DNA of 64,000 nucleotides from an uncultured Gammaproteobacteria bacterium (lineage in GTDB: Bacteria > Patescibacteriota > Microgenomatia > CAYQLK01): assembly GCA_964445355.1 (NCBI GenBank), contig CAYUKQ010000002.1, positions 1,590-65,589 of the forward strand, in the 5' to 3' direction. Shown one piece after another: positions 27,581 through 63,247 of this stretch (its first letter is position 1; the number at the start of each line of letters is the position of its first letter). The position numbers and the translations under genes are program-made. The notes under the pieces are model-generated. The model had not been told where the DNA came from, did no database searches, and saw nothing but the letters and a program-made list of their open reading frames with translations.

Positions 27581-27983
27581 GTTCTTAGGACAATTTGAAC
27601 CACAATTTTCTTCAAATTCTAAGAGGCTTTCTATTCCGGTCAAACTCCGGTCGGGCTTAACGAAGAATAAAGTTATTCTTTCAAAAGGCTTTGATCAGTG
27701 TATCTTCGGGTATTCTACCGAAGGCTGGGAGGCACAAAGTGTCAAGCACCTTGAAAACCCAATCTCTGACCAAACAGGGCGAGATCTGCGTCGATTTATC
27801 TTTTCTGCCTCGGAAGAAGTTGATTTCGATAAACAAGGCAGAATTGTGATCCCAAAAACCTTAATTGATTACGCTGAGATTGATCAGTCTGTAACCGTCA
27901 TTGGTGCAGGTGATCATTTCGAAATTTGGTCAACCAAAAAATGGAACGAAAAAATATATGCCATTGACACTAAAAACCGTTGA
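27579..27983 (+). CDS. mraZ: Transcriptional regulator MraZ
   Basis: 134 aa, first gene of the dcw cluster, with the duplicated MraZ/AbrB-like half-domain pattern. Confidence 0.8.
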   Translation: MFLGQFEPQFSSNSKRLSIPVKLRSGLTKNKVILSKGFDQCIFGYSTEGWEAQSVKHLENPISDQTGRDLRRFIFSASEEVDFDKQGRIVIPKTLIDYAEIDQSVTVIGAGDHFEIWSTKKWNEKIYAIDTKNR

Positions 27984-28836
27984 AAAACACATTCCTGTTC
28001 TGCCGGATGAATCGTTAAATCTACTCGAGATAACGACCGGATCAAAAATAATTGATGCCACATTAGGTGACGCCGGACATGCATCGCTCTTTTTAAGTCA
28101 TGGTGCCAGAGTACTCGGTATTGATGCTGATCCCGAAAATATCAATAAAGCACAAAATCTTTCTCCAAGCCTACAAGTGGTTCATGGAAATTTTTGCAAT
28201 TTATCTGAGATTGCAAAAAGAGAGAAATTTGATTTTGTTGACGGAATTTTTTTTGATCTCGGTTATTCGTCCACGCAACTTCAGGACAGTACTAAAGGTA
28301 TCAGTTTTCTTAACGACGGACCATTGGATATGAGATTGGATCCCACATCGCAAGGTGTGACAGCTGCCGATTTATTAAAAGTATTAACTGAAAAACAATT
28401 ATATGAATTATTTATCGAATTTGGTCAAGAGAAGCGTGCTCGGCTCATTGCTGACGCTATTGTCCGCGCCCGTTTGATCAAACCAATTGAGACGACTGCT
28501 CAACTGCGCGAAATTGTTGAGCACGTTAGCCCCCGGAGGAGTAAAGATAAAATTCATCCGGCGACTAAGGTTTTTCAGTCGTTAAGAATTGCAATTAACA
28601 GCGAATTGGAAAATCTTGAATCTGCACTTTTACAGTCTGTTGAACTTCTAAAACCCGGAGGTGTTTTGGTAGTTATTTCATTTCACTCATTAGAAGATAA
28701 AATTGTCAAAAATTTTATCCGAAATAATTATTTACTCGTTAATATTACTGATAAGCCTATAGTTCCGAGTATAAACGAAGTTCAGTTAAACAGACGTGCT
28801 CGAAGTGCCAAACTTCGAGCAGCACGGAAAATTTAA
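27958..28836 (+). CDS. rsmH: 16S rRNA (cytosine1402-N4)-methyltransferase RsmH
   Basis: 'DATLGDAGHA' SAM site and 'FDLGYSSTQLQD...GISFLNDGPLDMRLD' RsmH signature. The start was chosen at ATG 27958 (MPLTLK). Confidence 0.85.
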   Translation: MPLTLKTVEKHIPVLPDESLNLLEITTGSKIIDATLGDAGHASLFLSHGARVLGIDADPENINKAQNLSPSLQVVHGNFCNLSEIAKREKFDFVDGIFFDLGYSSTQLQDSTKGISFLNDGPLDMRLDPTSQGVTAADLLKVLTEKQLYELFIEFGQEKRARLIADAIVRARLIKPIETTAQLREIVEHVSPRRSKDKIHPATKVFQSLRIAINSELENLESALLQSVELLKPGGVLVVISFHSLEDKIVKNFIRNNYLLVNITDKPIVPSINEVQLNRRARSAKLRAARKI

Positions 28837-28887
28837 AAAACTGGGCAGCAGTTTTTTGTTACAAGTACAAAAAACAAACTGCTCAAA

Positions 28888-29278: not shown

Positions 29279-31048
29279 ATGCGTGAAATCCGTTGGGTTT
29301 ACTTTGTTTGTTTAGCAGTTTTTATTCTCATCGTTATAAGGTTATTTTATTGGCAGGTGATTAGTCGGGATTCGTTGCAGGCAAAAGCTGAGAAGCAATA
29401 TCTTCGCGATATAGAATTACTTCCAAAAAGAGGCGAAATTTTAACATCTGACGGATCGCCATTAGTCACCAATCAAACGGCATACTTAATGTATGCTAAC
29501 CCTAAGGAAATTATTGATCCAATAGCTGTTGCCGAGAAAATTCAACCAGTCCTGGATTTGAGTGATGTTGCTACAATTAGTGCAGAATTATTGCCAAATT
29601 ATGAAAAAGATTCCTACCAAAAAGACCAAGAATTAAAGAGAAAGGACCGGGAACTAAAATTAGCTGAAAAAATTTCCCAAACCAATTTGGATTGGGTCCT
29701 TGTTGGGCGTAAATTATCCCCAATTCAAAAACAGCAAATCGAAAAATTAAACATCTCAGGCTTAGGATTTAACGATGAAATTGCAAGAGAATATCCAGAA
29801 GGTTCAATGTCTGCTCACTTGCTAGGGTTTGTTGGTTTAGATGATTTTGGACGTGATACCGGATATTTTGGTCTTGAAGGATTTTATAACCGGCAACTCA
29901 AGGGTCGTCTTGGTTTAACTAAAGAAGAGACCGACGCAAAAGGAAATCCAATACTATTAGGTGATTATGGGCGAATTGGAGAGAATCCTGGAAGGACATT
30001 AAAGCTAACTATCGACAGATCAGTGCAAAAGACCGTAGAGGAAGAACTGAAGTCGTCAATTGAGGCCTATCAGGCAAAAGCTGGACAAGTTTTGGTAATG
30101 GATCCTCATACTGGCGCAATTATAGCTTCAGCAGCCTATCCTGCCTACGATCCTGCCAACTACACCAAGTATCCGGATGCTAACTTCGTCAATCCGGTGG
30201 TCGCAGAAACCTACGAACCAGGTTCCACTTTTAAGGTTTTAGCAATGGCAGCAGGAGTCAATGAAAAAGTCATAGAACCTGATACGATTTGTACTATTTG
30301 TGACAAGCCTGTTGAGATTAGTGGCTACAAAATTTCGACTTGGGATAATAAATATCATCCCGGCTCAACAATGACCGAGGTTATCCAAAATTCTGATAAC
30401 ACCGGCATGGTCTTCCTGTCCCAAAAACTAGGATTTGAAAAATTTTATGAGTATCTTAAGAATTTTGGGTTCGGAGATTTGACCGGGGTCGATATTCAAG
30501 ACGAAACATACGGAGTAATTAGGTCCAAAAAGGACTGGAGAGAAATCGATCTGGCAACGGCATCGTTTGGCCAGGGAATTGGGGTTACTTCGATTCAAAT
30601 GGTACGGGCGGTTTCGGCGATTGCTAACGGCGGGACACTACCTACACCACATTTTGTAACTGAAATACTTGAATCAGACAATGCGCTCAAGATTGCTCCA
30701 GAGCAAAAGAATTTTAAAAAAATAATTAGTAAAGAGTCTGCTGACAAAGTCACTCAGATGATGGTTAAGGCCGTAACCGCAGGAGAGGCGCATTACAAAA
30801 TTCCGCAAGGCTATTCTCTGGCAGGAAAAACCGGGACGGCACAGATACCTGTAGCTGGTCACTATGACCCCACAAAAACAATAGCTAGTTTTGTTGGTTT
30901 TGGACCGCTACCTAATCCAAGGTTTGTTATGTTGGTAAGATTTACCGAGCCCAAATCCTCGCCGTACGGATCAGAAACCGCTGCCCCTACATTTTTTAGA
31001 ATTGCATCTGAAATATTTCGCTTATGGTCTATTCCTCCTAATCTTTGA
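29279..31048 (+). CDS. ftsI: Penicillin-binding protein, FtsI-type transpeptidase
   Basis: N-terminal TM helix. Active-site motifs STFK ('GSTFKVLAMAAG'), SDN ('NSDNTG') and KTGT ('AGKTGTAQ'). Confidence 0.8.
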   Translation: MREIRWVYFVCLAVFILIVIRLFYWQVISRDSLQAKAEKQYLRDIELLPKRGEILTSDGSPLVTNQTAYLMYANPKEIIDPIAVAEKIQPVLDLSDVATISAELLPNYEKDSYQKDQELKRKDRELKLAEKISQTNLDWVLVGRKLSPIQKQQIEKLNISGLGFNDEIAREYPEGSMSAHLLGFVGLDDFGRDTGYFGLEGFYNRQLKGRLGLTKEETDAKGNPILLGDYGRIGENPGRTLKLTIDRSVQKTVEEELKSSIEAYQAKAGQVLVMDPHTGAIIASAAYPAYDPANYTKYPDANFVNPVVAETYEPGSTFKVLAMAAGVNEKVIEPDTICTICDKPVEISGYKISTWDNKYHPGSTMTEVIQNSDNTGMVFLSQKLGFEKFYEYLKNFGFGDLTGVDIQDETYGVIRSKKDWREIDLATASFGQGIGVTSIQMVRAVSAIANGGTLPTPHFVTEILESDNALKIAPEQKNFKKIISKESADKVTQMMVKAVTAGEAHYKIPQGYSLAGKTGTAQIPVAGHYDPTKTIASFVGFGPLPNPRFVMLVRFTEPKSSPYGSETAAPTFFRIASEIFRLWSIPPNL

Positions 31049-39977: not shown

Positions 39978-41255
39978 ATGGCTAAAGATAGAGTAATTGT
40001 CGGAATAGATATTGGCTCCTCCAAAGTGTGTACAATTATTGCTACTATCGACGAAGATTTAACGCCGCACATTATTGGTGTATCAGCAACCCCTTCAAAA
40101 GGAATTAGAAAAGGGCAAATTATTGATATAGAAGAATCTGTTGGTGCGGTGACCAAATCCATTGAAGCAGCTGAAAGAATGGCGGGATTTTCCGCGGGGA
40201 ACGCCTTTGTTTTGATTGGTGGTACGCATATCGAGTGTCAAAATTCCAAAGGAGTCGTAGCGATCAGTAGTACTAGTAGTGAGGTAGATCACGCAGATAT
40301 TAATCGGGTCATTGAAGCGGCCAGAGCCGTGTCACTACCATCTTCGCGAGAGGTGCTGCATGTAATACCAAGGCATTTTTCAATCGACTCCCAGACTGGC
40401 ATTAAAGATCCTGTTGGTATGACTGGTGTTCGTCTCGAGGTAGAAACACACCTTATCACTGGCGCTACCACGGCAATTCGTAATCTTGGCAAGTGTGTTC
40501 AGACCGTTGGTGTCGGTGTTGAATCAATGGTTTTTTCAGGTCTGGCAGCAGCTGAAGCTGTACTTTCAGATACTGAAAAGGAGTTAGGTGTAGTAGTTGT
40601 CGATATTGGTGGTGGTACGACAGACGTCGTAATCTATGTTGACGGCGCTGTTGCTCATTCTGCAGTCTTGCCTGTTGGGGCAAAAAACATTACTAACGAT
40701 ATTGCGATTGGGCAAAGAATTAGTTTGGAGTCTGCCGAAAAAATAAAACTTCATCTCTCCAAACCAAACTCCTTGAAGTTTCTCAAGCCGCAATCTGAAA
40801 AACCGACTCACAAAAAAGACGATTATTTGGATCTTTCAAGTCTTAATTTGGACGAATCGGTTGAAAAAGCTTCATTTAAAATGCTTACCGATGGTTTTAT
40901 CAAGCCGAGAGTTAATGAGATTCTTAAGATGGTTAAAGATGAAATAAAAAAATCCGGATTTGGTTCACTTACACCCGCTGGAGTAGTTTTAACTGGCGGA
41001 GGGGCACAAACAATAGGTATTGTAGAGCACGCGAAACGAGAATTAGGTATGCCGGTCAGATTGGGTAAGCCGCAATATGCGAAAGGCTTAATTGACGAAA
41101 TTTCAACACCTGAATACTCAGCCTCACTTGGTTTGATTCTGTTTGCACTAAAAACAGACACCTACGAAGACTCTCGTCTCCCCATTGTTGGTAGAGTAGA
41201 AATCAAAGAGAGTGTTACGAAAGCAGTTAATTGGGTAAAGTCTTTACTCCCCTAA
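39978..41255 (+). CDS. ftsA: Cell division protein FtsA
   Basis: Actin-fold motifs 'VGIDIGSSKV' and 'VVVDIGGGTTDV', with ftsZ downstream. Confidence 0.85.
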   Translation: MAKDRVIVGIDIGSSKVCTIIATIDEDLTPHIIGVSATPSKGIRKGQIIDIEESVGAVTKSIEAAERMAGFSAGNAFVLIGGTHIECQNSKGVVAISSTSSEVDHADINRVIEAARAVSLPSSREVLHVIPRHFSIDSQTGIKDPVGMTGVRLEVETHLITGATTAIRNLGKCVQTVGVGVESMVFSGLAAAEAVLSDTEKELGVVVVDIGGGTTDVVIYVDGAVAHSAVLPVGAKNITNDIAIGQRISLESAEKIKLHLSKPNSLKFLKPQSEKPTHKKDDYLDLSSLNLDESVEKASFKMLTDGFIKPRVNEILKMVKDEIKKSGFGSLTPAGVVLTGGGAQTIGIVEHAKRELGMPVRLGKPQYAKGLIDEISTPEYSASLGLILFALKTDTYEDSRLPIVGRVEIKESVTKAVNWVKSLLP

Positions 41256-41403: not shown

Positions 41404-42615
41404 ATGCTTGTAAAACCAGAGGTAACAAATTTCGCAAAAATTAAAGTAATTGGTGTTGGTGGTGGCGGTGGAAACGCAATTAATTCTATGATCGCCGGAA
41501 ATACCATACACGATGTCGATTTTGTTGCAATAAACACGGATGCACAGCAATTATTATCTTCATTAGCGCCTGTTAAAGTTCAATTAGGTGACCAATTAAC
41601 CAAAGGTCTTGGTGCTGGTGCCGATCCTGAAATAGGCAGGCAGGCTGCAGAGGAATCGATAGACAAAATTCAGGAAGTTCTAGAAGGATCAGACATGGTA
41701 TTCGTGACATATGGTGGTGGCGGTGGTACCGGGACCGGAGCCGGACCAGTTGTAGCATCAGTTGCCAAAAAATTAGGCATTTTGACAGTTGCAGTAGTGA
41801 CAAAACCATTTGCTTTTGAAGGAACACGTCGTATGCTGATTGCCGAAGAGGGTATTGCTAATCTCAGAGACAATGTTGATACGCTTATTGTTATTCCTAA
41901 TCAAAGACTAATTGAAGTAGTAGATAAGAAGGTTTCGCTAATCGACGCGTTTAAGCTTTCTGATACTATTTTAACCAACGGCGTTCAGGGTATTTCAGAT
42001 TTGATAACTGTATCCGGGAATATTAATGTTGACTTTGCGGACGTTAAAGCAGTAATGAAAGATTCTGGTTCTGCACTAATGGGTATGGGTATTGCTTCAG
42101 GTGATAATCGGGCAATTAACGCCGCTCGGCAAGCGGTGGTTTCGCCACTATTGGACGTATCAATTGAAGGAGCAAAAGGTCTGCTTTTTAATATTACGGG
42201 TGGTCCGGATCTTTCTCTTTCAGAAGTTGACGAAGCAGCACAGGTAATCACAAAACCAGCCGATCCTGACGCTCAAATAATATATGGCTATACAATAGAT
42301 GAAAATATGGTCGATCAGATAAAGATCACTGTCGTTGCTACGGGTTTTGATGACGAAATAAAATTAGGCGGCGGTTATGCTTCGCCGTCGACGTACGCAC
42401 AACGTCCGGTTTATGAAGAAGATGACACAAAAAACCGTAGGGATGATGACTACGATGAAGATCGAAATAATTTTTCCAAGTCGCCCGCTTCTTCAAATCA
42501 CTCTGAGTCAAATCTCTCTTCTGTCCATGAAGAGGCAAAATCTATTGAAGAAAAAGAAGAGTTTGTTGAAGAAGATGAGTGGGATGTTCCTGCCTTCCTT
42601 CGTCAGCGAAATTAA
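41404..42615 (+). CDS. ftsZ: Cell division GTPase FtsZ
   Basis: '[15 protein letters not shown]' and '[10 protein letters not shown]' tubulin signature, followed by an acidic C-terminal tail. Confidence 0.9.
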
Positions 42616-47173: not shown

Positions 47174-48235
47174 ATGTTTTCGATTAGATATATATTCTGG
47201 ACCCTGCTTCCATTTGTTGCGATTTTACTTTTTGGCGCACTCGGTGTCGCGAGTACCGAAATATCATTACTACCTAATCAGCTTACTTATTATGCGCTAG
47301 GCATAATCATTATCGCGATCTTTACGTTCCTTGATACGAGCCTGATTCAAAAATTTTCTATATATTTTTTTATCTTCGTCATTCTGTCACTGATAGCTGT
47401 GTTAATCTTTGGCGAAAATATTCGTGGTTCTGTGCGTTGGTTTGATTTTGGATCCTTCAGGTTTCAGCCGTCTGAGTTAGCAAAATCAGCAACGATTTTT
47501 TTCCTCGCATCACTGATTTCATTTACTGAAGGTCTTGGTCGGCGTATTCAAATTTTTTCTAGTCTGGCAGTAGCATGTATTCCTTTTATACTAATTTTTA
47601 TTCAGCCTGATTTAGGTTCTGCGATGCCAATTTTGTTGATCTGGTTTTCTATGATATTTATCAAAGGATTACAAACGCGATACATTCTATTCCTGGTGAT
47701 ATTTTTTATTATTTCGCTACCGATTAGTTGGACACTGCTCGCCCCATACCAAAAAGAGCGCGTTAATACTTTTTTTAACCCAACCCAAGACCCGTTAGGT
47801 GCAGGTTATGCAGTTATTCAATCCCAGATTTCAGTCGGCTCAGGAGAGTTTTTTGGCAAGGGTCTAAGTCGCGGAACACAGAGCCAGTTGAATTTTTTAC
47901 CAGAAAAACATACTGATTTTGTTTTTGCTTCTGTAGCTGAAGAAGTTGGATTTTTAGGGTCATTCGTGATCTTACTTTCATTCTCAACTCTTGTCTCATC
48001 AATCTTCTATTACGCTTCACGTATTCAAAATAGTTTTGCAACGTTGGTACTTATTTCAGCCGGAACACTCGTATTGTTTCAGTTTTTTGTAGCCATAGGA
48101 ATGAATTTAGGCTTATTACCGGTTACTGGTATCACTCTGCCTTTTATTTCTTATGGTGGTTCATCTATTCTCAGTTTATCGCTGATCCTTGGGGTAGTTA
48201 ATGGAATCATAGTACAGAACCGATTGTCTAAGTAG
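47174..48235 (+). CDS. Second SEDS-family (RodA/FtsW-type) peptidoglycan glycosyltransferase
   Basis: Ten-TM protein with an FtsW/RodA family C-terminus 'LPVTGITLPFISYGGSS'. Confidence 0.65.
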   Translation: MFSIRYIFWTLLPFVAILLFGALGVASTEISLLPNQLTYYALGIIIIAIFTFLDTSLIQKFSIYFFIFVILSLIAVLIFGENIRGSVRWFDFGSFRFQPSELAKSATIFFLASLISFTEGLGRRIQIFSSLAVACIPFILIFIQPDLGSAMPILLIWFSMIFIKGLQTRYILFLVIFFIISLPISWTLLAPYQKERVNTFFNPTQDPLGAGYAVIQSQISVGSGEFFGKGLSRGTQSQLNFLPEKHTDFVFASVAEEVGFLGSFVILLSFSTLVSSIFYYASRIQNSFATLVLISAGTLVLFQFFVAIGMNLGLLPVTGITLPFISYGGSSILSLSLILGVVNGIIVQNRLSK

Positions 48236-56108: not shown

Positions 56109-56201
56109 AAACTCCTATTGCTTCCTTTCTCAGCTCGTAACAATTGCGAGCTAATATTATTCTTTTAAGTTTTGGGCAGGAGGATTATTAAAATATTTGT
56201 G

Positions 56202-56276
56202 CGGACCCGAACGGATTCGAACCGTCGATCTCTTCCGTGACAGGGAAGCGTGTTAGGCCGGCTACACCACGGGTCC
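56202..56276 (-). tRNA. tRNA-Asp (anticodon GUC)
   Basis: Reverse complement GGACCCG-TG-GTGT...ACAC-G-CTTCC-CTGTCAC-GGAAG-AGATC-GACGG-TTCGAAT-CCGTC-CGGGTCC-G. Confidence 0.85.
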
Positions 56277-56371
56277 TTTCCGGAGTTAATAAACACGTAC
56301 CCGAGACTCACGTTGTCGAAGCTAAGTCCAAGCACTCTTACTAACCTAAAAAGTATAGCAACTTACTCCAA

Positions 56372-56417
56372 GTTGTCAATCCCGACCATTGACAACCCAT
56401 AATATATCAACTATAAC
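56372..56417 (+). promoter_or_regulatory. Perfect 8-bp inverted repeat operator (TTGTCAAT-N7-ATTGACAA) whose right arm forms the -35 of a TTGACA-16-TATAAC promoter
   Basis: Palindrome arms at 56372-56379 and 56387-56394. The -35 is at 56389-56394 and the -10 at 56411-56416. AAGGAG at 56445-56450 lies before the ATG at 56463. Confidence 0.45.
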
Positions 56418-56462
56418 GCTTCCCCAGGTACATTAACCATTTCCCAAGGAGTCACCAATAAC

Positions 56463-57023
56463 ATGGTTGCAATCAGTACCGAAGAGTTTTTTCGCAAACG
56501 GCAAGCTGAGTCCGTCAACCTCGTCCTGATGTTTGCCGATGTTCTGCATCAGTACTACGGCTTTATTCTACACCCCAAGATCGTCTGCCATGTGAGCTGT
56601 CACTGGAAGGATAGTTTCAGAATCAGCCTCGAACAGAGCGATGTCTCTGCAGGTGTCACACCACACCAGCTCGGACAGTTCAGTCTTGATTTCCCGTTCC
56701 AAAATGGTATCCGGGTTATGAGATGGCTTCGAGACTCGATTATTGGGCAGGGTCTGGGCATCGAGCTTCAGCGTCACAGTGCCGGAATCAAAAACTTCAG
56801 CTTTCTTTTAGCTGGCGATCCGCATAAGGTTGTCCAGGCAGTTCAGCTCATCAATATCGCCATGTTCGCGCTCGACCCGTGCGTTACGACCGATAAACGC
56901 TGTCCGCACTGCCCTCAGTCTTACGGCGACCCTTCATATCTCTACGATGATGGTGAGGTTCTGACTTGCGCCAGGTGCGATATGACCTTCGGTCGGCACC
57001 TTCTTGAGACGGAAACAGTCTAA
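56463..57023 (+). CDS. Hypothetical protein with C-terminal CxxC...CxxC zinc-ribbon; GC-rich relative to neighbors
   Basis: 186-aa ORF with its own promoter and operator, an AAGGAG Shine-Dalgarno, and a strong terminator immediately downstream. 'CPHCPQ...(17)...CARCD' zinc ribbon. Confidence 0.5.
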   Translation: MVAISTEEFFRKRQAESVNLVLMFADVLHQYYGFILHPKIVCHVSCHWKDSFRISLEQSDVSAGVTPHQLGQFSLDFPFQNGIRVMRWLRDSIIGQGLGIELQRHSAGIKNFSFLLAGDPHKVVQAVQLINIAMFALDPCVTTDKRCPHCPQSYGDPSYLYDDGEVLTCARCDMTFGRHLLETETV

Positions 57024-57047
57024 AAGCCTCCATTTGCCGTTCGCCAA

Positions 57048-57080
57048 GCCCAGACCATAACAAGTCTGGGCTTTTTCATT
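57048..57080 (+). terminator. Rho-independent terminator
   Basis: GCCCAGAC-cataacaa-GTCTGGGC followed by TTTTTCATTT. Confidence 0.7.
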
Positions 57081-57093
57081 TAAAATAGATTTG

Positions 57094-58839
57094 ATGAACG
57101 AGAATCGCCAAATTGCTCAGATTTTGCGTAACATTGCCTCAGTCTACGAAATTATAGGCAAGAGTTTTTTTGAGGTAGCGGCTTACAAAAGGGCGGCTGA
57201 TTCCGTCGAGCAGTCAACCAGTGATCTGAGGCAGCTCTGGAAAGCAGGCGAACTCGATACAGTTCCTGGATTAGGCAAAGCCCTAATCGGCTACATGAAT
57301 GAATACTTCGAAACAGGAAAAATTAAGCATTTCGAGTCAGTTTATAAAAAAGCCCCAAAAGGATTCTTTGAGCTGCTTACCGTACCAGGCATTGGCCCAA
57401 AAAAGGCTTACGAATTATGCACTAAGCTCAATATTAGCTCGATCGGCGATCTCGAGCGCGCAATTAAGTCGAACAGTATTTCAGCACTGCCTAGGTTTGG
57501 ACATAAGAGTCAGGAGCAAATAGCTAATAATCTCAGCAGAGTAGTCGCCAAATCACACAGAACACCTCTTTGGGTTGCCGATGCGGTGGTAAACGAAGTG
57601 ACTCAATGGATGCAGGCTGATCCAAAAATTCTCGATTTTGCCGCCCTTGGCAGTTTCAGAAGAAGGCTGAATAGTGTTGGTGATTTGGATTTTGCCGCCT
57701 CTAGTCACAACACTCAGGATGCGGTTGACAGATTTTTATCCTATCCGGCAATAGGTTCAATTGTTGAAAAAGGTCCAGCTTCGGCAACAATAACTCTTAA
57801 TGATACGGAATTTCAGCTGGATTTACTTGTGTCTGAACCGGATAGTTATGGAAGTCTTCTGCAGCATTTTACGGGTTCGCGGGAGCATAATATTGCTCTG
57901 CGCACCTTAGCGGTCAAAAAAAACCTGTCTCTATCTGAAAAAGGGATCAAATTAGCAAGTAATACGCTTAAAAAATTCGCAACAGAAAAAGAATTTTATA
58001 ATTTTCTTGGATTAGATTACATTCCGCCTGAATTGCGGGAAAATACTGGCGAAATCGAGCTTGCTCAGAAGCACAGTATCCCGCGACTGGTTAAAATAGA
58101 AGATATCAAGGGTGATTTTCACACCCACTCAAATTTTTTCACGACTTCTATGCACGACTTTGGTGCATCTTCAATCACGGATTTAGTATCGAAGGCCAAG
58201 GAGAAAAAATATCAATATTTAGGAATATCTGACCATCCTCCGTCAGAAAAAAGTTGGCAGGATCCTAAAATTATCAAACAAATAAAAAGCCATAGAACAA
58301 TAATTAATAGACTTAATGAACAAAAAAACTCTATAAGAGTAATTAATTTACTCGAAGTTGACATAGGTATCAATGGATCAATCAAGTTTCCTGATCAATA
58401 TGTTCAATATTATGACGCCTTCATTGCAGGAGTTCACTCTAATTTTTCACAGCCTCGAGAACAGATGACTCAGCGCATTCTGAATGGACTAACTTGTTCT
58501 AAAGTATTTGGGCTTTCTCATCCGACCGGTAGGCTAATAGACAAGCGTGAAGGATACGACGCTGATTGGGATCAGATCTTTGACTATTGCAGCAAAAATA
58601 ATAAGGTCTTAGAAATCAATGCTTCAGTCGATAGGCTTGATTTGACTGAAACCTTGGTCCGCCGTGCAAGTGCCAAAGGTTGTTTGTTTATGATTAATAC
58701 CGACACCCATGACCTGCCAAGTATGGATCTGATGAGTTACGGGGTGGACGTCGCCAGGCGAGGGGGATTGACTGCCGAGTCGATCATCAATACCTGGCCA
58801 AAAGATCGATTAATTAAATTCATCTTAAGGACTATATAA
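57094..58839 (+). CDS. Family X DNA polymerase (Pol beta-like) with C-terminal PHP phosphoesterase domain
   Basis: HhH motifs 'LPGIGKK'-like ('VPGLGKALIGY', 'VPGIGPKKAYEL'), nucleotidyltransferase core 'GSFRRRLNSVGDLDF', and PHP 'GDFHTHSNF...'. Confidence 0.8.
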   Translation: MNENRQIAQILRNIASVYEIIGKSFFEVAAYKRAADSVEQSTSDLRQLWKAGELDTVPGLGKALIGYMNEYFETGKIKHFESVYKKAPKGFFELLTVPGIGPKKAYELCTKLNISSIGDLERAIKSNSISALPRFGHKSQEQIANNLSRVVAKSHRTPLWVADAVVNEVTQWMQADPKILDFAALGSFRRRLNSVGDLDFAASSHNTQDAVDRFLSYPAIGSIVEKGPASATITLNDTEFQLDLLVSEPDSYGSLLQHFTGSREHNIALRTLAVKKNLSLSEKGIKLASNTLKKFATEKEFYNFLGLDYIPPELRENTGEIELAQKHSIPRLVKIEDIKGDFHTHSNFFTTSMHDFGASSITDLVSKAKEKKYQYLGISDHPPSEKSWQDPKIIKQIKSHRTIINRLNEQKNSIRVINLLEVDIGINGSIKFPDQYVQYYDAFIAGVHSNFSQPREQMTQRILNGLTCSKVFGLSHPTGRLIDKREGYDADWDQIFDYCSKNNKVLEINASVDRLDLTETLVRRASAKGCLFMINTDTHDLPSMDLMSYGVDVARRGGLTAESIINTWPKDRLIKFILRTI

Positions 58840-59600: not shown

Positions 59601-61364
59601 TTGTACAAGTTGCTAGGCAGTCTTGCCCTGAGTTTAGTCATCCTCATTTTGCCATCTCCATCATCAAACCAAGAGCGCTCCGGATCATCTTCTTTGATTT
59701 TTCTCGCCACTGACCAGGGACTTTTTAGTGCACACGAAAAAGATCAGAGTTTTAGCCGAATACCAAAATTCCAAAACATCAGTTTTCTGGAATCCAATCT
59801 GGAAAACCAGGCAGTCTTTCTGATCCATCAACCCGTGCCCGGCAGTATCGCTAATATTGCCGAGATCACCTACGATTTCGGAAAGAATTGGCTAACCGTC
59901 GACCCTGCCAAAACCGGGCTAACCAAGCCTGACGGGGCAAAAGTAACCAGTTTTGGTTACTTTACTGTTACCGACTCCAAAACATATGTTGCCGGAATCG
60001 GCTACGGACGCGTCGCTATCAAACTCACTTCCGAAAAAAACTGGAGACTACTCGATCTACAAGCCAACTCTGACAACTACCAAGTGATCGGAGAATGGCT
60101 CTATCTGCTTTCGCCAAAAGGTTACGAGAACCAGCTGGTTCGCTGTTCGCTCGTCACATTCCAATTGGAGGTTTTAACCAATCCCGAAAGCCCGAACTCT
60201 CGATTCGCAGGATTCGAGCTTGTCGGTGTGGTCGATCACCAGTTGCTGTTAAGTACTTCAGGATCCGATGGTCTCAGGTTATTTGATCCCGAAAACCAAA
60301 TCTTTTCAGCACGCCTTAGTGGTAATTTCGACCGGATTTATGCGTCTGCAAAGGGGGTTGCTACCCAAAATACTCAAAACTACGAAGTTGCTGTCTGGGG
60401 AAGCTCGCTGGAAAAAGTTGCTAGCTATCTAGCCGAAAGCAACGAGGTGCTTGGTTACAGTCTGCAAAACGACTGTTTATACCAATTAAGCCTCGATCTG
60501 CTGAGATGCTTACCTGCCGGTCGTTCAATCTCTTTGCCGATCTCGCTCACACGTTCCGAATTTGCCTTCGCCGGCCTTGCTGTGGTCTACCCACCGCACG
60601 CAGTGGATCACCAAGGGGCAGAACCGGTTTTGTTTGTCTCCGGACTGGGTGGAGGAGCGCTTGGTGACCTTTACTGGGAAGGCAAGCACAAGGATTTGAT
60701 ACCACTGACAACCGTTTCAGGTCATAACTTTATGCTAAGCCGATCCACCTGGACCACGGGGCAGTTGGGGTACTTCTTGACTTTCGACTTCGTGCTCAGT
60801 CACGATATCTGTTCAATCGCCGAAGTGGTTGGACGGTCAGTTGACTACATCAGACTTAGGTCTGGTGTAGAAAAAATCGATTTGATCGGCTATTCGATGG
60901 GAGGTCTACTGGCTCGTTGTTTTGTGGAGGATTTGGTTCCTTTGTACAGATACGACGACTCGGTTGATGATCTCCTGCTTATCGCCACTCCGAACAACGG
61001 TTCCTTTGCGGCCGGCTTGGCTGGACCTCTGCTCGGCTTCATCGACCTTTATAAGGGTTTGCAGGCCAGCTGGCTAACTCCATATAGTCCGCAGATCCAC
61101 CACATCAACTCAAAGCCAATTCCGTTTGGTGTTTCAGTCACGGTAATCTATGGCACCGGTTTCTGGTTGCCACTCTATGAGGGAAACGACGGACTAGTGT
61201 CTTACTTCGATGCGAGACTTGACCCGTCGGTCAAGGCCTCTGTTCGATACATAGAACTGCCTGAAGCGGTTCATTCTCGATCACACGACCATCTGGAGAA
61301 GCATTATCCGATCCTGGAGGATAAACTATTCTTGTTTGATCAAATCAAACTAATGGGGAAGTGA
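59601..61364 (+). CDS. Secreted two-domain protein: N-terminal domain of unknown fold plus C-terminal alpha/beta-hydrolase (lipase/esterase-like)
   Basis: TTG start 7 nt after GGAG. Signal peptide. C-terminal 'VLFVSGLGGG' oxyanion region and 'GYSMGG' GXSXG nucleophile elbow. About 52% GC. Confidence 0.6.
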   Translation: MYKLLGSLALSLVILILPSPSSNQERSGSSSLIFLATDQGLFSAHEKDQSFSRIPKFQNISFLESNLENQAVFLIHQPVPGSIANIAEITYDFGKNWLTVDPAKTGLTKPDGAKVTSFGYFTVTDSKTYVAGIGYGRVAIKLTSEKNWRLLDLQANSDNYQVIGEWLYLLSPKGYENQLVRCSLVTFQLEVLTNPESPNSRFAGFELVGVVDHQLLLSTSGSDGLRLFDPENQIFSARLSGNFDRIYASAKGVATQNTQNYEVAVWGSSLEKVASYLAESNEVLGYSLQNDCLYQLSLDLLRCLPAGRSISLPISLTRSEFAFAGLAVVYPPHAVDHQGAEPVLFVSGLGGGALGDLYWEGKHKDLIPLTTVSGHNFMLSRSTWTTGQLGYFLTFDFVLSHDICSIAEVVGRSVDYIRLRSGVEKIDLIGYSMGGLLARCFVEDLVPLYRYDDSVDDLLLIATPNNGSFAAGLAGPLLGFIDLYKGLQASWLTPYSPQIHHINSKPIPFGVSVTVIYGTGFWLPLYEGNDGLVSYFDARLDPSVKASVRYIELPEAVHSRSHDHLEKHYPILEDKLFLFDQIKLMGK

Positions 61365-61386: not shown

Positions 61387-61417
61387 GCCCCGCATACTTA
61401 CTTGCGGGGCATTTTTT
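61387..61417 (+). terminator. Rho-independent terminator
   Basis: GCCCCGCA-tacttact-TGCGGGGC followed by ATTTTTT. Confidence 0.7.
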
Positions 61418-61792: not shown

Positions 61793-63187
61793 ATGTTCAG
61801 CTTCGCTGATGGGTGGCAAAACCACCTTAAAAGACTTCTGATCTTTGGAGTAATGCTGCTGGCAGCATTTATGCCGCTAACAGCCAATGCTCAAAGCCCA
61901 ACAGTCGATCCGTCTGTGTGGCGCTTTGTCACACATCAGGAGCGTCTGTATATCGCCTCAGGCAGTCAGGAGTTCGTTACGGAAGTCGACACTAGTCAAC
62001 TTCCGTCCAAACTCTTTCTCCGGCCTCAGCTGGATGAAAAAGGCAACATTTACCTTCTGTCTGCCTCGTCGTCAAGTTCTGCGCTCTCGCTATACTACAG
62101 CCGGACCGAAAACGGCAAAAGTCGCTGGTACGAACTAAGTGCCAAGAGTCTCGGACTCTCGTCCGGCTCCGGCATTTACGACTACTCTGTCAGCAAGCAG
62201 GGCACACTCACGATTCTGGGGCAGACTGGTGAAGTCATAACCGGCCAGGCTGGTGTCGACCAATCATATAAGCTTCAGCAGTCGGATCTACCGCCACGGG
62301 TCAGCTTCACCAAGTTCGTCAGCAACGTTGGTCAGACAGCAATTGCTACTACGCAAGGGCTGGTCAGTCTGTTTGGTGACAACGGCAAGCTGAACAAGTC
62401 CAGCTACTTAAAGGCTGGAATCGGGGAGCATGAATCAATTTCGGCACTTGGTCCTGCGCTGTATGTGTACCCCGGGCCACGCAATCCGCAAGCCGAAGAT
62501 CGCAAAGCAGTTACCTACGTCCACCAGTTCGCCGACAATAGTCTGTCGAAGATCACACTCGACAGTCCGATCGTCGACATGATGCTCGTCGGTGATTATG
62601 ATTACCATCTCGTCTTGACTGAGCAAAAGGTCTGGATGTTTTCGAGGTCAACCTCTCAGGCATTCGGTCAGCTGGTCGACGTTACTGCCAAATTCGGGCA
62701 ACCGCCCGTTAAGGCGATCACGAGCTATAACAGAGGCAAGGATAACGTTTTTTACGTATCTGCCGGTGACAAAGTCAGCAGGTATGTGATCAACAGTCCC
62801 ACCGACATTACCTCCACCGCGCTCAAGCTACTTGCTCCGACCTACAAGATCGCCTCATCAGTCTCTGGTGTGGGCACTAGCGGGGCACTTGCGCCTACGC
62901 CGCAGAACCCGAATGAGGTTGTCCCTTCTCAGCCGGGACAGTCTCAAGGTGTATCTACCAATCAGTCGGGTACAATCATCCAAACAACGGTGGTTGAACA
63001 GCCAGTAGCAGGGGATCAATCAAATAAGTCGTTTTGGTCGCCGGCGGTGATCATCTCGATCGTTGTGATCGTCCTCGCGCTGGTTTTGTTTATCGTTCTT
63101 GCTCGTTTGATCTTTTCTCGGGCAAAGAATCGCTTCCCGCCAGCCGGCACGACGATGCATCCGCCACACGGTCGTCGTCTGCCGTAG
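61793..63187 (+). CDS. Cell-surface protein: signal peptide, about 400-aa ectodomain, C-terminal TM anchor with short basic tail
   Basis: '...LLAAFMPLTANA/QSP' signal peptide; C-terminal 'AVIISIVVIVLALVLFIVLARLIF' helix. About 52% GC. Confidence 0.5.
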   Translation: MFSFADGWQNHLKRLLIFGVMLLAAFMPLTANAQSPTVDPSVWRFVTHQERLYIASGSQEFVTEVDTSQLPSKLFLRPQLDEKGNIYLLSASSSSSALSLYYSRTENGKSRWYELSAKSLGLSSGSGIYDYSVSKQGTLTILGQTGEVITGQAGVDQSYKLQQSDLPPRVSFTKFVSNVGQTAIATTQGLVSLFGDNGKLNKSSYLKAGIGEHESISALGPALYVYPGPRNPQAEDRKAVTYVHQFADNSLSKITLDSPIVDMMLVGDYDYHLVLTEQKVWMFSRSTSQAFGQLVDVTAKFGQPPVKAITSYNRGKDNVFYVSAGDKVSRYVINSPTDITSTALKLLAPTYKIASSVSGVGTSGALAPTPQNPNEVVPSQPGQSQGVSTNQSGTIIQTTVVEQPVAGDQSNKSFWSPAVIISIVVIVLALVLFIVLARLIFSRAKNRFPPAGTTMHPPHGRRLP

Positions 63188-63212: not shown

Positions 63213-63247
63213 GACCCAGTCTTTCTTTTAAGACTGGGTCTTTTTTA
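63213..63247 (+). terminator. Rho-independent terminator (10-bp perfect stem)
   Basis: GACCCAGTCT-ttctttta-AGACTGGGTC followed by TTTTTT. Confidence 0.75.

What the first reader, a model, noticed from the sequence alone, without database searches (positions are those of the whole stretch)
56372..57080. Self-contained GC-rich cassette: palindromic operator, promoter, Zn-ribbon ORF of unknown function, strong terminator
A perfect inverted repeat TTGTCAAT-N7-ATTGACAA embeds the -35 hexamer TTGACA of a TTGACA-16-TATAAC promoter. An AAGGAG Shine-Dalgarno, a 186-aa ORF with a C-terminal CxxC-N17-CxxC ribbon and an 8-bp GC-rich terminator follow. The unit is about 50% GC in a lower-GC neighborhood and lies between a tRNA and polX. 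It looks like an autonomously regulated, horizontally acquired module. I could not assign the ORF to any family by eye.
Basis: seen in the sequence. Interest (0 to 1): 0.6.

Follow-up and report, generated by a model that had tools for sequence, protein, structure and literature searches.

The report
Orphan zinc-ribbon gene beside tRNA-Asp
This is a real but ordinary single-gene unit for a small zinc-binding protein found in only one narrow group of uncultured bacteria, and its "palindromic operator" is best read as two promoters placed back to back, one for the gene and one for the neighbouring tRNA.

Summary
All the described features are present, with small corrections. The promoter spacer is 17 nt, the cysteine pairs are 18 residues apart, and the palindrome arms are 9 bp. 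The 186-aa ORF is a genuine gene. Seven orthologs are all 186 aa with no indels, dN/dS is 0.07-0.16, and only this frame stays open. It is an orphan: an exhaustive HMMER search of 1.84 billion representatives finds only its own cluster. Pfam, NCBIfam, PADLOC, PDB, phage and plasmid searches find nothing. The N-terminal domain model (pLDDT 81) has no PDB fold match. That arm is invariant in all 7 lineages. The right arm, the ORF's -35, varies, so the palindrome is perfect in only 2 of 7. No second copy occurs in the window. All close relatives (polX at least 66% identical) carry the gene at this junction. Three outgroup lineages (polX 44-46%) have tRNA-Asp directly next to polX without it. It is therefore an old, clade-specific insertion with raised GC3, not a recent mobile cassette. 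The protein's function remains unknown.

The parts
56201..56276 (-). tRNA-Asp (GTC), the divergent neighbour of the ORF
   Evidence: ARAGORN; Rfam tRNA, 63 bits. Present in the same position in all relatives and outgroups.
56352..56360 (-). Extended -10 element (TGc TATACT on the minus strand) of the tRNA-Asp promoter
   Evidence: Promoter scan: 11/12 match with TG. The block TAACCTAAAAAGTATA is conserved in 7/7 lineages apart from one base in L010.
56374..56379 (-). -35 hexamer TTGACA of the tRNA-Asp promoter; this is the left arm of the palindrome
   Evidence: TTGTCAATCCC is invariant in 7/7 lineages.
56372..56396 (.). Inverted repeat GTTGTCAAT-N7-ATTGACAAC, made of the two back-to-back -35 boxes
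   Evidence: Perfect only in the window and L011. No other copy in the window with up to 3 mismatches.
56389..56394 (+). -35 hexamer TTGACA of the ORF promoter (right arm)
   Evidence: In relatives it reads TTGACA, TCGACA or TAGACA; T and GACA are invariant.
56396..56405 (+). Conserved CCYATAATAT block inside the promoter spacer. It holds a second -10-like hexamer (CATAAT here, TATAAT in 4 relatives). Its role is unknown.
   Evidence: Conserved in 7/7 lineages. No matching -35 at 16-18 nt (read from the sequence).
56412..56417 (+). -10 hexamer TATAAC of the ORF promoter, 17 nt after the -35
   Evidence: Invariant in 7/7 with a 17-nt spacing (18 in L005). The simple scan does not list it because the last base is C, not T.
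56446..56451 (+). Shine-Dalgarno AAGGAG, 11 nt before the ATG
   Evidence: A purine-rich GGAGG/GAGGGG element sits at the same place in all relatives, although the rest of the 5' UTR varies.
56463..57023 (+). CDS of the 186-aa orphan protein (about 21 kDa, pI 6.1, 7 invariant Cys)
   Evidence: dN/dS is 0.07-0.16, there are no indels, and variable columns by codon position are 71/55/156.
56463..56885 (+). N-terminal alpha/beta domain (residues 1-141; helix, 3 strands, helix, 2 strands, helix) with invariant H29, C42, C46, H68, C140
   Evidence: AF2 pLDDT 81, pTM 0.77. No PDB fold match. No Pfam hit in any ortholog.
56895..56996 (+). C-terminal zinc-ribbon region (residues 145-178; C147, C150, C169, C172), the most conserved segment
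   Evidence: Pfam Zn_ribbon_4 matches only below threshold (15.3 bits against a 30.3 cut-off). AF2 confidence is below 50.
57046..57078 (+). Intrinsic terminator of the ORF
   Evidence: -17.4 kcal/mol, z -4.95. A hairpin of -16.6 to -21.2 kcal/mol is kept in all six lineages folded; L010 carries the same stem by sequence but was not folded.
57081..57086 (+). -10-like TAAAAT, 7 nt before the polX ATG (57094). It marks polX as a separate, possibly leaderless, unit.
   Evidence: A TAAAAT/TACAAT hexamer lies 6-8 nt before the ATG, with no SD, in the six clade members examined there.

Best explanation
Region 56372-57078 is an ordinary monocistronic gene. It was added to an ancestral tRNA-Asp|polX junction in the common ancestor of one narrow clade of Microgenomates-like Patescibacteria, and has been inherited vertically under purifying selection since.

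The 'palindrome' is what two sigma-70-type promoters look like when placed back to back. The left arm is the -35 box of a near-consensus, extended -10 promoter that fires leftward into tRNA-Asp. The right arm is the -35 box of a weaker promoter (TTGACA-17-TATAAC) that fires rightward into the ORF. Two TTGACA boxes on opposite strands are necessarily an inverted repeat. With the two hexamers 9 bp apart and the predicted start sites about 80 bp apart, ORF expression is probably coupled to tRNA promoter activity, through shared upstream DNA and the negative supercoiling generated behind the polymerase. No dedicated repressor is needed to explain the repeat.

The transcript carries an SD and ends at a conserved hairpin terminator. 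polX has its own -10 just downstream.

The product is a soluble, mildly acidic, roughly 21-kDa protein with two domains. The N-terminal alpha/beta domain has no detectable relatives and carries invariant Cys/His residues (C42, C46, C140, H29, H68) that may form a second metal or redox site. The C-terminal four-cysteine zinc ribbon is acidic (pI about 4.7), so it more likely docks on a protein or RNA-protein partner than on DNA.

Shown: gene reality, clade restriction, insertion relative to outgroups, the asymmetric conservation of the two arms, and terminator conservation.

Inferred: the start sites, the promoter coupling, zinc binding and the partner-docking role.
For: - Coding: there are 7 orthologs, all 186 aa without indels. 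dN/dS is 0.07-0.16 with synonymous sites near saturation. Only the sense frame is open in all 7, and variable columns by codon position are 71/55/156.
- Orphan status: only 4 clusters among 5.8e9 proteins, and one representative among 1.84e9 by exhaustive HMMER. Nothing in Pfam, NCBIfam, PHROGs or PADLOC, in PDB sequences, in viral or JGI contigs, or in phages and plasmids.
- Synteny: LysM, tRNA-Asp(-), ORF, polX, LemA in every close relative.
- Outgroups: at polX 44-46% identity, tRNA-Asp(-) sits 83-225 bp from polX and there is no ORF.
- tRNA promoter: TTGACA-16-TATACT with TG, 11/12, is one of the two best promoter matches in 44-64 kb.
- Footprint: the promoter block is conserved while the tRNA leader and the ORF 5' UTR vary with indels. 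The left arm is invariant in 7/7; the right arm is perfect in 2/7.
- Terminator: conserved at -16.6 to -21.2 kcal/mol.
- Protein: acidic overall and in the ribbon. The N-domain model has pLDDT 81.
- Precedent: back-to-back promoter coupling through supercoiling is documented for ilvY/ilvC in E. coli (PMC4469952).
Against: - The -10 of the ORF promoter ends in C (TATAAC), which would be a poor -10 in E. coli.
- The spacer holds a conserved CCYATAATAT block that the two-promoter model does not explain. It could be a second -10 or a binding site.
- In the window and in L011 the palindrome extends 3-4 bp beyond the hexamers, more than two -35 boxes require.
- No transcript data were available, so no start site has been mapped.
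- The protein's role rests on composition and conserved residues only. The zinc-ribbon part of the model has pLDDT below 50.
- GC3 of 0.55-0.65 persists in all lineages without an identified cause.
Confidence: 0.72

Rival explanations
1. The inverted repeat is an operator for a dimeric regulator, possibly the ORF product itself. The regulator would sit on the -35 box, making the cassette autoregulated, and would incidentally control the tRNA-Asp promoter as well.
For: - The repeat is perfect, with arms of 9 bp in the window and 10 bp in L011. That is beyond what two hexamers need.
- It overlaps both -35 boxes.
- In the other lineages the right arm still matches 5-7 of 8 positions, which is within the range of real operators.
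- A conserved block in the spacer is unexplained.
Against: - Conservation is asymmetric: the left arm is invariant while the right arm varies at 3 of 8 positions.
- The half-site centres are 15 bp apart, about 1.4 helical turns. This puts them on different faces of the helix, which is unusual for simple dimeric helix-turn-helix regulators (established knowledge).
- No other copy occurs in 64 kb with up to 3 mismatches.
- Perfect 8-bp inverted repeats are common in this window.
- The ORF product has no detectable DNA-binding domain and an acidic ribbon.
Confidence: 0.12
2. The ORF is an accessory factor of PolX, for example a repair nuclease or adaptor. It would be functionally linked to polX by adjacency and by partial read-through of the terminator.
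For: - The ORF lies immediately upstream of polX, on the same strand, in all 7 lineages.
- The terminator ends 15-20 nt before the polX ATG.
- Low-probability fold hits include RNase-H-like proteins such as RuvC and the UvrC C-terminal half.
Against: - All 7 lineages are close relatives with the whole neighbourhood syntenic, so adjacency carries no independent weight.
- PolX works without the ORF in every other Microgenomates genome.
- A strong conserved terminator separates the two genes, and polX has its own -10-like element.
- The fold hits have probability of 0.33 or less and TM of 0.31 or less.
- No acidic catalytic residue is conserved in the first strand (residues 40-46), where RNase-H-like nucleases carry one.
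Confidence: 0.1
3. It is a recently acquired mobile cassette, such as a phage or island remnant, integrated at the tRNA gene.
For: - GC3 is 0.58 against about 0.3 in core genes.
- It lies next to a tRNA.
- It is absent from the outgroups.
- There is a net GC-to-AT flux at third positions on young branches, 31 against 15.
Against: - It is present at the same site in every clade member, across saturated synonymous divergence.
- It sits on the 5' side of the tRNA.
- There is no integrase, no duplicated tRNA fragment and no flanking repeat.
- There are no phage, plasmid or viral-contig relatives.
Confidence: 0.04
4. The ORF is not a gene: either a chance open frame in GC-rich DNA, or the real gene lies on the other strand (a public gene call on L011/L012 chose the antisense 201-aa ORF).
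For: There are no homologs outside the clade. An antisense ORF of 201 aa is open in L011.
Against: - dN/dS is 0.07-0.16, the length is an identical 186 aa in 7 lineages, and variation is dominated by third positions.
- Antisense frames are broken in the other lineages, with the longest stretches running from 79 to 180 aa.
- SD and start codon are conserved.
- The AF2 domain model is confident.
Confidence: 0.02

Closest known systems
Back-to-back divergent sigma-70 promoters (for example ilvY/ilvC of E. coli)
   Same: Two promoters lie on opposite strands with adjacent upstream regions. Activity of one can influence the other through shared DNA and transcription-generated supercoiling (PMC4469952).
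   Different: One partner here is a tRNA gene. The two -35 hexamers are only 9 bp apart, so together they read as a palindrome. No regulator site is known, and no start site has been mapped.
MJ0042-type zinc ribbon (Pfam PF13717, Zn_ribbon_4)
   Same: The CPxC...CxxC pattern with two cysteine knuckles. It is the best Pfam match.
   Different: The score is 15.3 bits against a cut-off of 30.3, and only 2 of 7 orthologs hit it at all. The ribbon is C-terminal and acidic. The structure model of this part is not confident.
DksA/TraR-type C4 zinc-finger proteins
   Same: A small cytoplasmic protein with a long N-terminal helix and a C-terminal CxxC-N17/18-CxxC motif.
   Different: There is no match to the DksA/TraR zinc-finger family in Pfam at E up to 10. 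The spacing is 18 residues. The body of the protein is an alpha/beta domain rather than a coiled coil.
tRNA-associated genomic islands
   Same: Extra DNA of deviating GC content next to a tRNA gene, absent from more distant relatives.
   Different: It lies on the 5' side of the tRNA. There is no integrase and no att repeat. It is a single gene, fixed in the whole clade.
Palindromic operators that overlap the -35 box of autoregulated repressor genes
   Same: An inverted repeat covers the -35 box of the gene's own promoter.
   Different: Only one arm is conserved. No DNA-binding domain is detectable in the product. There is no second site in the window.

Membership tests
Sigma-70-type promoter (ORF, + strand) | A -35 hexamer close to TTGACA | tested here: met
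   TTGACA at 56389-56394. Relatives read TTGACA, TCGACA or TAGACA.
Sigma-70-type promoter (ORF, + strand) | A -10 hexamer close to TATAAT, with A at position 2 and T at position 6, 16-18 nt downstream | tested here: inconclusive
   TATAAC at 17 nt is invariant in 7/7. Position 6 is C, so it fails the scan's rule.
Sigma-70-type promoter (ORF, + strand) | A mapped transcription start | not testable with these tools
   No transcript data were available.
Sigma-70-type promoter (tRNA-Asp, - strand) | -35 and -10 hexamers at 16-18 nt, upstream of and pointing at the gene | tested here: met
   TTGACA-16-TATACT with TG, 11/12, at 56379..56352. Both hexamers are invariant in 7 lineages. An equivalent TTGACC-17-TAAACT can be read in the outgroup L014 sequence.
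Intrinsic (Rho-independent) terminator | A GC-rich hairpin followed by a T-run, directly after the stop codon | tested here: met
   Hairpin at 57046-57073 plus T-run, -17.4 kcal/mol, z -4.95. A hairpin is kept in all six lineages folded.
Palindromic operator of a dimeric regulator | Both half-sites conserved among relatives | tested here: not met
   The left arm is conserved in 7/7. The right arm is perfect in 2/7, with 1-3 mismatches in 5/7.
Palindromic operator of a dimeric regulator | The site recurs at other promoters (a regulon) | tested here: not met
   It is the only match in 64 kb with up to 3 mismatches. Chance expectation is 1.2. The whole genome was not available.
Palindromic operator of a dimeric regulator | A cognate DNA-binding protein | tested here: not met
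   The ORF product has no helix-turn-helix or other DNA-binding family hit. Its pI is 6.1 and the ribbon's is 4.7. A trans-acting regulator encoded elsewhere cannot be excluded.
Zinc ribbon (Pfam Zn_ribbon_4, PF13717) | Two CxxC knuckles about 15-20 residues apart | tested here: met
   C147/C150 and C169/C172 are invariant in 7/7.
Zinc ribbon (Pfam Zn_ribbon_4, PF13717) | Score above the family's gathering threshold | tested here: not met
   15.3 bits against 30.3. Only 2 of 7 orthologs match even at E up to 10.
Zinc ribbon (Pfam Zn_ribbon_4, PF13717) | A ribbon fold with bound zinc | tested here: inconclusive
   The AF2 model of residues 142-186 has pLDDT below 50. Metal content cannot be tested here.
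tRNA-targeted integrative island | An integrase, and a direct repeat of the tRNA 3' end at the far border | tested here: not met
   There is no integrase between LysM and LemA. No tRNA fragment is repeated elsewhere in the window and there is no flanking repeat. The insert lies on the tRNA 5' side.
tRNA-targeted integrative island | The junction is empty in related genomes | tested here: met
   It is empty in three outgroup lineages. It is occupied in all 7 clade members.
DksA/TraR C4 zinc-finger family | A match to the family profile | tested here: not met
   No hit at E up to 10 in any ortholog.
RNase-H-like fold (a lead from low-probability fold hits) | A significant structural superposition and conserved acidic catalytic residues | tested here: not met
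   Best Foldseek E is 0.08, probability 0.33 or less, TM 0.31 or less. No invariant Asp or Glu lies in the first strand.

The most novel reading that the evidence does not exclude
The N-terminal 140-residue domain may be a protein fold or family not seen before. It would carry its own Cys/His metal or redox centre (C42, C46, C140, H29, H68) and be joined to an acidic zinc ribbon. The gene was captured once by a small Microgenomates clade and wired back to back to the tRNA-Asp promoter. In this reading it performs a clade-specific job tied to tRNA-Asp or PolX, such as tRNA or DNA-end processing, and the extended palindrome seen in two lineages is a true shared control site for both promoters.
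Probability: 0.1. Interest if true: 0.45.

Novelty: new member of a known kind. Interest (0 to 1): 0.2.

Why it matters
The result matters mainly as a correction. A perfect palindrome over a -35 box between divergent genes need not be an operator, because two consensus -35 boxes on opposite strands produce one automatically. Comparing relatives, where one arm is invariant and the other drifts, tells the two readings apart. The gene adds one more clade-restricted, cysteine-rich orphan protein to the large unknown fraction of Patescibacteria proteomes. Here the insertion point is cleanly dated, with the junction occupied in the clade and empty in three outgroups. If the N-terminal domain proved to be a new metal-binding fold it would be of modest structural interest. 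Nothing found here bears on a long-standing open question.

Tried and rejected
**Remote homology of the ORF.**
- The word-seeded search of 5.8e9 proteins found only 4 clusters at 70% identity or more.
- The exhaustive HMMER profile search of 1.84e9 representatives found only the family itself.
- Pfam, NCBIfam, PHROGs and PADLOC found nothing above threshold. Pfam run on all 7 orthologs gave only weak zinc-ribbon hits.
- PDB sequence profiles gave 0 hits at E up to 10.
- Viral contigs, JGI metagenome contigs, phage records and plasmid records gave nothing.

**Fold comparison.**
- The full-length model (pLDDT 67.5) was searched against PDB and BFVD. The N-domain model (pLDDT 81) was searched against PDB.
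- No match reached E of 1e-3 or better.
- Scattered RNase-H-like hits were rejected as insignificant.

**Mobile-element signatures.** There is no paralog in the window, no repeated tRNA fragment and no flanking direct repeat.

**Regulon search.** No second palindrome occurs in the window.

**Antisense-gene idea.** This was raised by a public gene call on L011 and rejected, because the antisense frames are broken in other lineages.

**High GC3 as codon adaptation of a highly expressed gene.** This is considered unlikely because FtsZ has GC3 of about 0.30 and other core genes such as CTP synthase and the class I aminoacyl-tRNA synthetase about 0.33-0.35.

**High GC3 as proof of recent transfer.** This is rejected because all 7 lineages keep it across saturated synonymous divergence. 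Polarised substitutions hint at slow decay, 31 GC-to-AT against 15 AT-to-GC, p = 0.026. Parsimony bias makes this weak.

**Not spent.** I ran no further search on the neighbouring high-GC3 genes, because the answer would not change the verdict.
Full report
**1. Observation**

- The inverted repeat is TTGTCAAT (56373-56380), a 7-nt spacer CCCGACC, and ATTGACAA (56388-56395). It extends by one pair to 9-bp arms at 56372-56396.
- TTGACA is at 56389-56394 and TATAAC at 56412-56417. The spacer is 17 nt, not 16.
- AAGGAG is at 56446-56451, 11 nt before the ATG at 56463.
- The ORF is 56463-57023, 186 aa.
- The cysteine pairs are CPHC at residues 147-150 and CARC at 169-172, 18 residues apart, not 17.
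- The terminator hairpin at 57046-57073 plus its T-run folds at -17.4 kcal/mol, z = -4.95.
- The ORF has 51.3% GC and GC3 of 0.58. The window has 37.2% GC, and most genes have GC3 of 0.24-0.42.
- tRNA-Asp(GTC) is at 56201-56276 on the minus strand. A PolX gene with HHH_8, thumb and PHP domains follows at 57094-58839.

Two cautions apply.

- A perfect 8-bp inverted repeat is not rare here. The window holds 63 with spacers of 0-12, against 25 +/- 6 in simulated sequence.
- Two other nearby genes are equally GC3-rich: 59601-61364 at 0.52 and 61793-63187 at 0.59.

**2. The ORF is a real gene and an orphan**

The protein search found only four clusters, at 100, 81, 71 and 70% identity. With genome and contig look-ups I collected seven orthologous lineages: the window, L001, L003, L005, L008, L010 and L011.

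- All seven are exactly 186 aa, with no indels.
- Pairwise dN/dS is 0.07-0.16, and synonymous differences are near saturation between most pairs (pS 0.6-0.8).
- Variable alignment columns fall 71/55/156 on codon positions 1/2/3. Only the sense frame is open in all seven.
- In L011/L012 a public gene call took an antisense 201-aa ORF instead. That frame is broken elsewhere.

Beyond these orthologs nothing was found.

- An exhaustive HMMER profile search of 1.84 billion representatives returned one protein, the family itself.
- Pfam gave only a sub-threshold Zn_ribbon_4 match, 15.3 bits against a cut-off of 30.3. NCBIfam and PADLOC gave nothing, and PHROGs only weak ribbon hits.
- PDB sequence profiles gave no hit at E up to 10.
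- Viral contigs, JGI metagenomes, phage records and plasmid records gave nothing.

**3. The protein**

The full-length AlphaFold2 model has pLDDT 67.5, with the ribbon part below 50. The N-terminal 141 residues alone give pLDDT 81 and pTM 0.77. Their topology is helix, three strands, helix, two strands, helix.

In total 105 of 186 residues are invariant. These include seven cysteines (C42, C46, C140, C147, C150, C169, C172) plus H29 and H68. The most conserved stretch is the ribbon region, DP.YLYDDGE.LTCARCDMTFGR.

The protein is mildly acidic, with pI 6.0-6.4, and the ribbon part has pI about 4.7. This argues against a DNA-binding role.

My working inference is a soluble zinc protein. Its ribbon would dock on a protein or RNA-protein partner. 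Three cysteines and two histidines in the N-domain could form a second metal or redox site. None of this has been shown.

**4. The palindrome is two promoters back to back**

It is TTGACA (56379..56374), a 16-nt spacer, and TATACT (56357..56352) preceded by TG. It matches 11 of 12 positions and points at tRNA-Asp. It is one of the two best promoter matches in the last 20 kb of the window. Its -35 hexamer is the left arm of the palindrome. The right arm is the -35 hexamer of the rightward ORF promoter. Two TTGACA boxes on opposite strands are an inverted repeat by construction.

Comparison of the seven lineages supports this reading.

- The block from AAGTCCAAGCA through TATAAC is strongly conserved. 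The tRNA leader and the ORF 5' UTR vary with indels.
- Within that block the left arm, TTGTCAATCCC, is invariant in 7/7.
- The right arm is ATTGACAA in the window and L011, ATCGACAT in L001, L008 and L010, ATCGACAA in L003, and CTAGACAC in L005.
- A symmetric dimeric regulator would constrain both arms. What is observed is one arm fixed by a strong tRNA promoter and the other drifting around a -35 consensus.

Three further points count against an operator.

- No other copy of the repeat occurs in 64 kb, even with three mismatches.
- The half-site centres are 15 bp apart, about 1.4 helical turns.
- The ORF product has no DNA-binding domain.

Three things remain open.

- The -10 TATAAC ends in C.
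- A conserved CCYATAATAT block lies in the spacer. It contains TATAAT in four relatives and CATAAT in the window, L003 and L011.
- The palindrome extends beyond the hexamers in the window and L011.

The predicted start sites are about 80 bp apart. For such back-to-back pairs, coupling through transcription-generated supercoiling is documented for ilvY/ilvC (PMC4469952). Coupling here is an inference.

**5. The terminator and polX**

The hairpin is kept in all six lineages folded, at -16.6 to -21.2 kcal/mol, with changes that preserve or lengthen the stem. The seventh, L010, carries the same stem by sequence. polX has no Shine-Dalgarno sequence. A -10-like hexamer (TAAAAT, TACAAT or TGTAAAAT) ends 6-8 nt before its conserved ATG in the six clade members examined. 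polX therefore looks like a separate unit, possibly with a leaderless transcript.

**6. Origin**

The window also carries FtsA, FtsZ, a PBP, FtsW, CTP synthase, a class I aminoacyl-tRNA synthetase and ParB, so this is core chromosome.

PolX relatives fall into two groups. One is close, at 66-99% identity. After a gap, the other sits at 46% and below, and its named members are Levybacteria, Curtissbacteria, Daviesbacteria and other Microgenomates/Patescibacteria. The GTDB records for two clade members are titled 'uncultured Gammaproteobacteria', which does not fit.

Every close relative examined has the order LysM, tRNA-Asp(-), ORF, polX, LemA. Three outgroup lineages keep LysM, tRNA-Asp(-), polX and LemA, but with only 225, 195 and 83 bp between the tRNA and polX. 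They have no ORF and no tblastn trace of it. The gene was therefore gained once, in the ancestor of the clade.

There are no mobility marks.

- The gene lies on the 5' side of the tRNA.
- There is no integrase.
- There is no repeated tRNA fragment, no flanking repeat and no paralog.

GC3 stays at 0.55-0.65 in all lineages, while polX next door is 0.34-0.45. Polarised third-position changes on the young L003/L008/L010 branches run 31 GC-to-AT against 15 AT-to-GC, p = 0.026. This fits slow decay of a once GC-richer foreign gene. The counts are small and parsimony is biased, so I treat it as a hint. No donor can be named.

The two other GC3-rich genes downstream of LemA are also missing from the outgroups. 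Each, like the ORF, ends in one of the three best terminators of the region.

**7. Verdict**

This is a real, self-contained, monocistronic gene for a clade-restricted orphan zinc-ribbon protein. It was inserted long ago between the tRNA-Asp promoter and polX. The 'operator' is most simply the pair of back-to-back -35 boxes. I give the structural and regulatory account a confidence of about 0.7. The role of the protein is much less certain. Interest is low (0.2), because orphan cysteine-rich proteins with standard expression signals are common in Patescibacteria. The only notable residue is a confidently modelled domain without relatives.

Noticed in passing
window 57046-57096: polX has no Shine-Dalgarno sequence. 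A -10-like TAAAAT (57081-57086) ends 7 nt before its ATG (57094). The six clade members examined keep a TAAAAT/TACAAT/TGTAAAAT hexamer 6-8 nt before the ATG. This suggests a leaderless polX mRNA whose -35 region lies inside the ORF's terminator hairpin.
   Followed up: partly
window 59601-61364 and 61793-63187: Two more clade-specific genes have raised GC3 (0.52 and 0.59). One is a 587-aa protein with a weak alpha/beta-hydrolase (PGAP1/DUF7379-like) C-terminal part. The other is a 464-aa protein with a signal peptide and a C-terminal membrane anchor and no Pfam hit. Each ends in a strong terminator (61387-61410, 63213-63240). Both are absent from the outgroups, where LemA is followed by PRPP synthase or an M48 peptidase.
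   Followed up: partly
L011 3353-3958 and L012 1310-1915 (minus strand): The public gene call on these contigs chose a 201-aa antisense ORF instead of the conserved 186-aa plus-strand gene. As a result this lineage's protein is missing from the protein databases.
   Followed up: yes
L008, L009 (GTDB records CAYOLO010000003.1, CAYROP010000001.1): The record titles say 'uncultured Gammaproteobacteria bacterium'. The best named PolX relatives are Microgenomates/Patescibacteria, so the label looks wrong. L009 also has a run of N inside the ORF.
   Followed up: partly
window 56396-56405: The block CCYATAATAT inside the spacer of the ORF promoter is conserved in all 7 lineages. It contains a consensus TATAAT in four of them but has no matching -35 at 16-18 nt. 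Its role is unexplained: it could be a second -10 or a binding site.
   Followed up: partly
L014 3955-3995 (also L013 320-360): In the outgroup, a direct repeat CTTGGTACTCGTG occurs twice just upstream of the polX start codon. It may be a regulator site that the window's clade lacks.
   Followed up: no
L001 6640-6740 / L002 equivalent: About 100 bp of extra sequence lies between the ORF terminator and polX in this lineage only. Its nature was not examined.
   Followed up: no
window 56277-56345: The first ~20 nt of the predicted tRNA-Asp leader (plus-strand AAGTCCAAGCAC) and the 13 nt next to the tRNA 5' end (TTCCGGAGTTAAT) are conserved, while the middle of the leader varies with indels. These may be processing signals.
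   Followed up: no
window 1-48235: Almost all genes lie on the plus strand in one long run. It includes a cell-division/wall cluster (PBP 29279-31048, FtsA 39978-41255, FtsZ 41404-42615, FtsW 47174-48235), CTP synthase and a class I aminoacyl-tRNA synthetase. GC3 rises gradually from about 0.26 at the left end to about 0.35 here.
   Followed up: partly
window 28798-28875: Three perfect 8-bp inverted repeats with 7-nt spacers cluster at the end of gene 27901-28836. The window as a whole has about 2.5 times more short perfect inverted repeats than simulated sequence (63 against 25).
   Followed up: no
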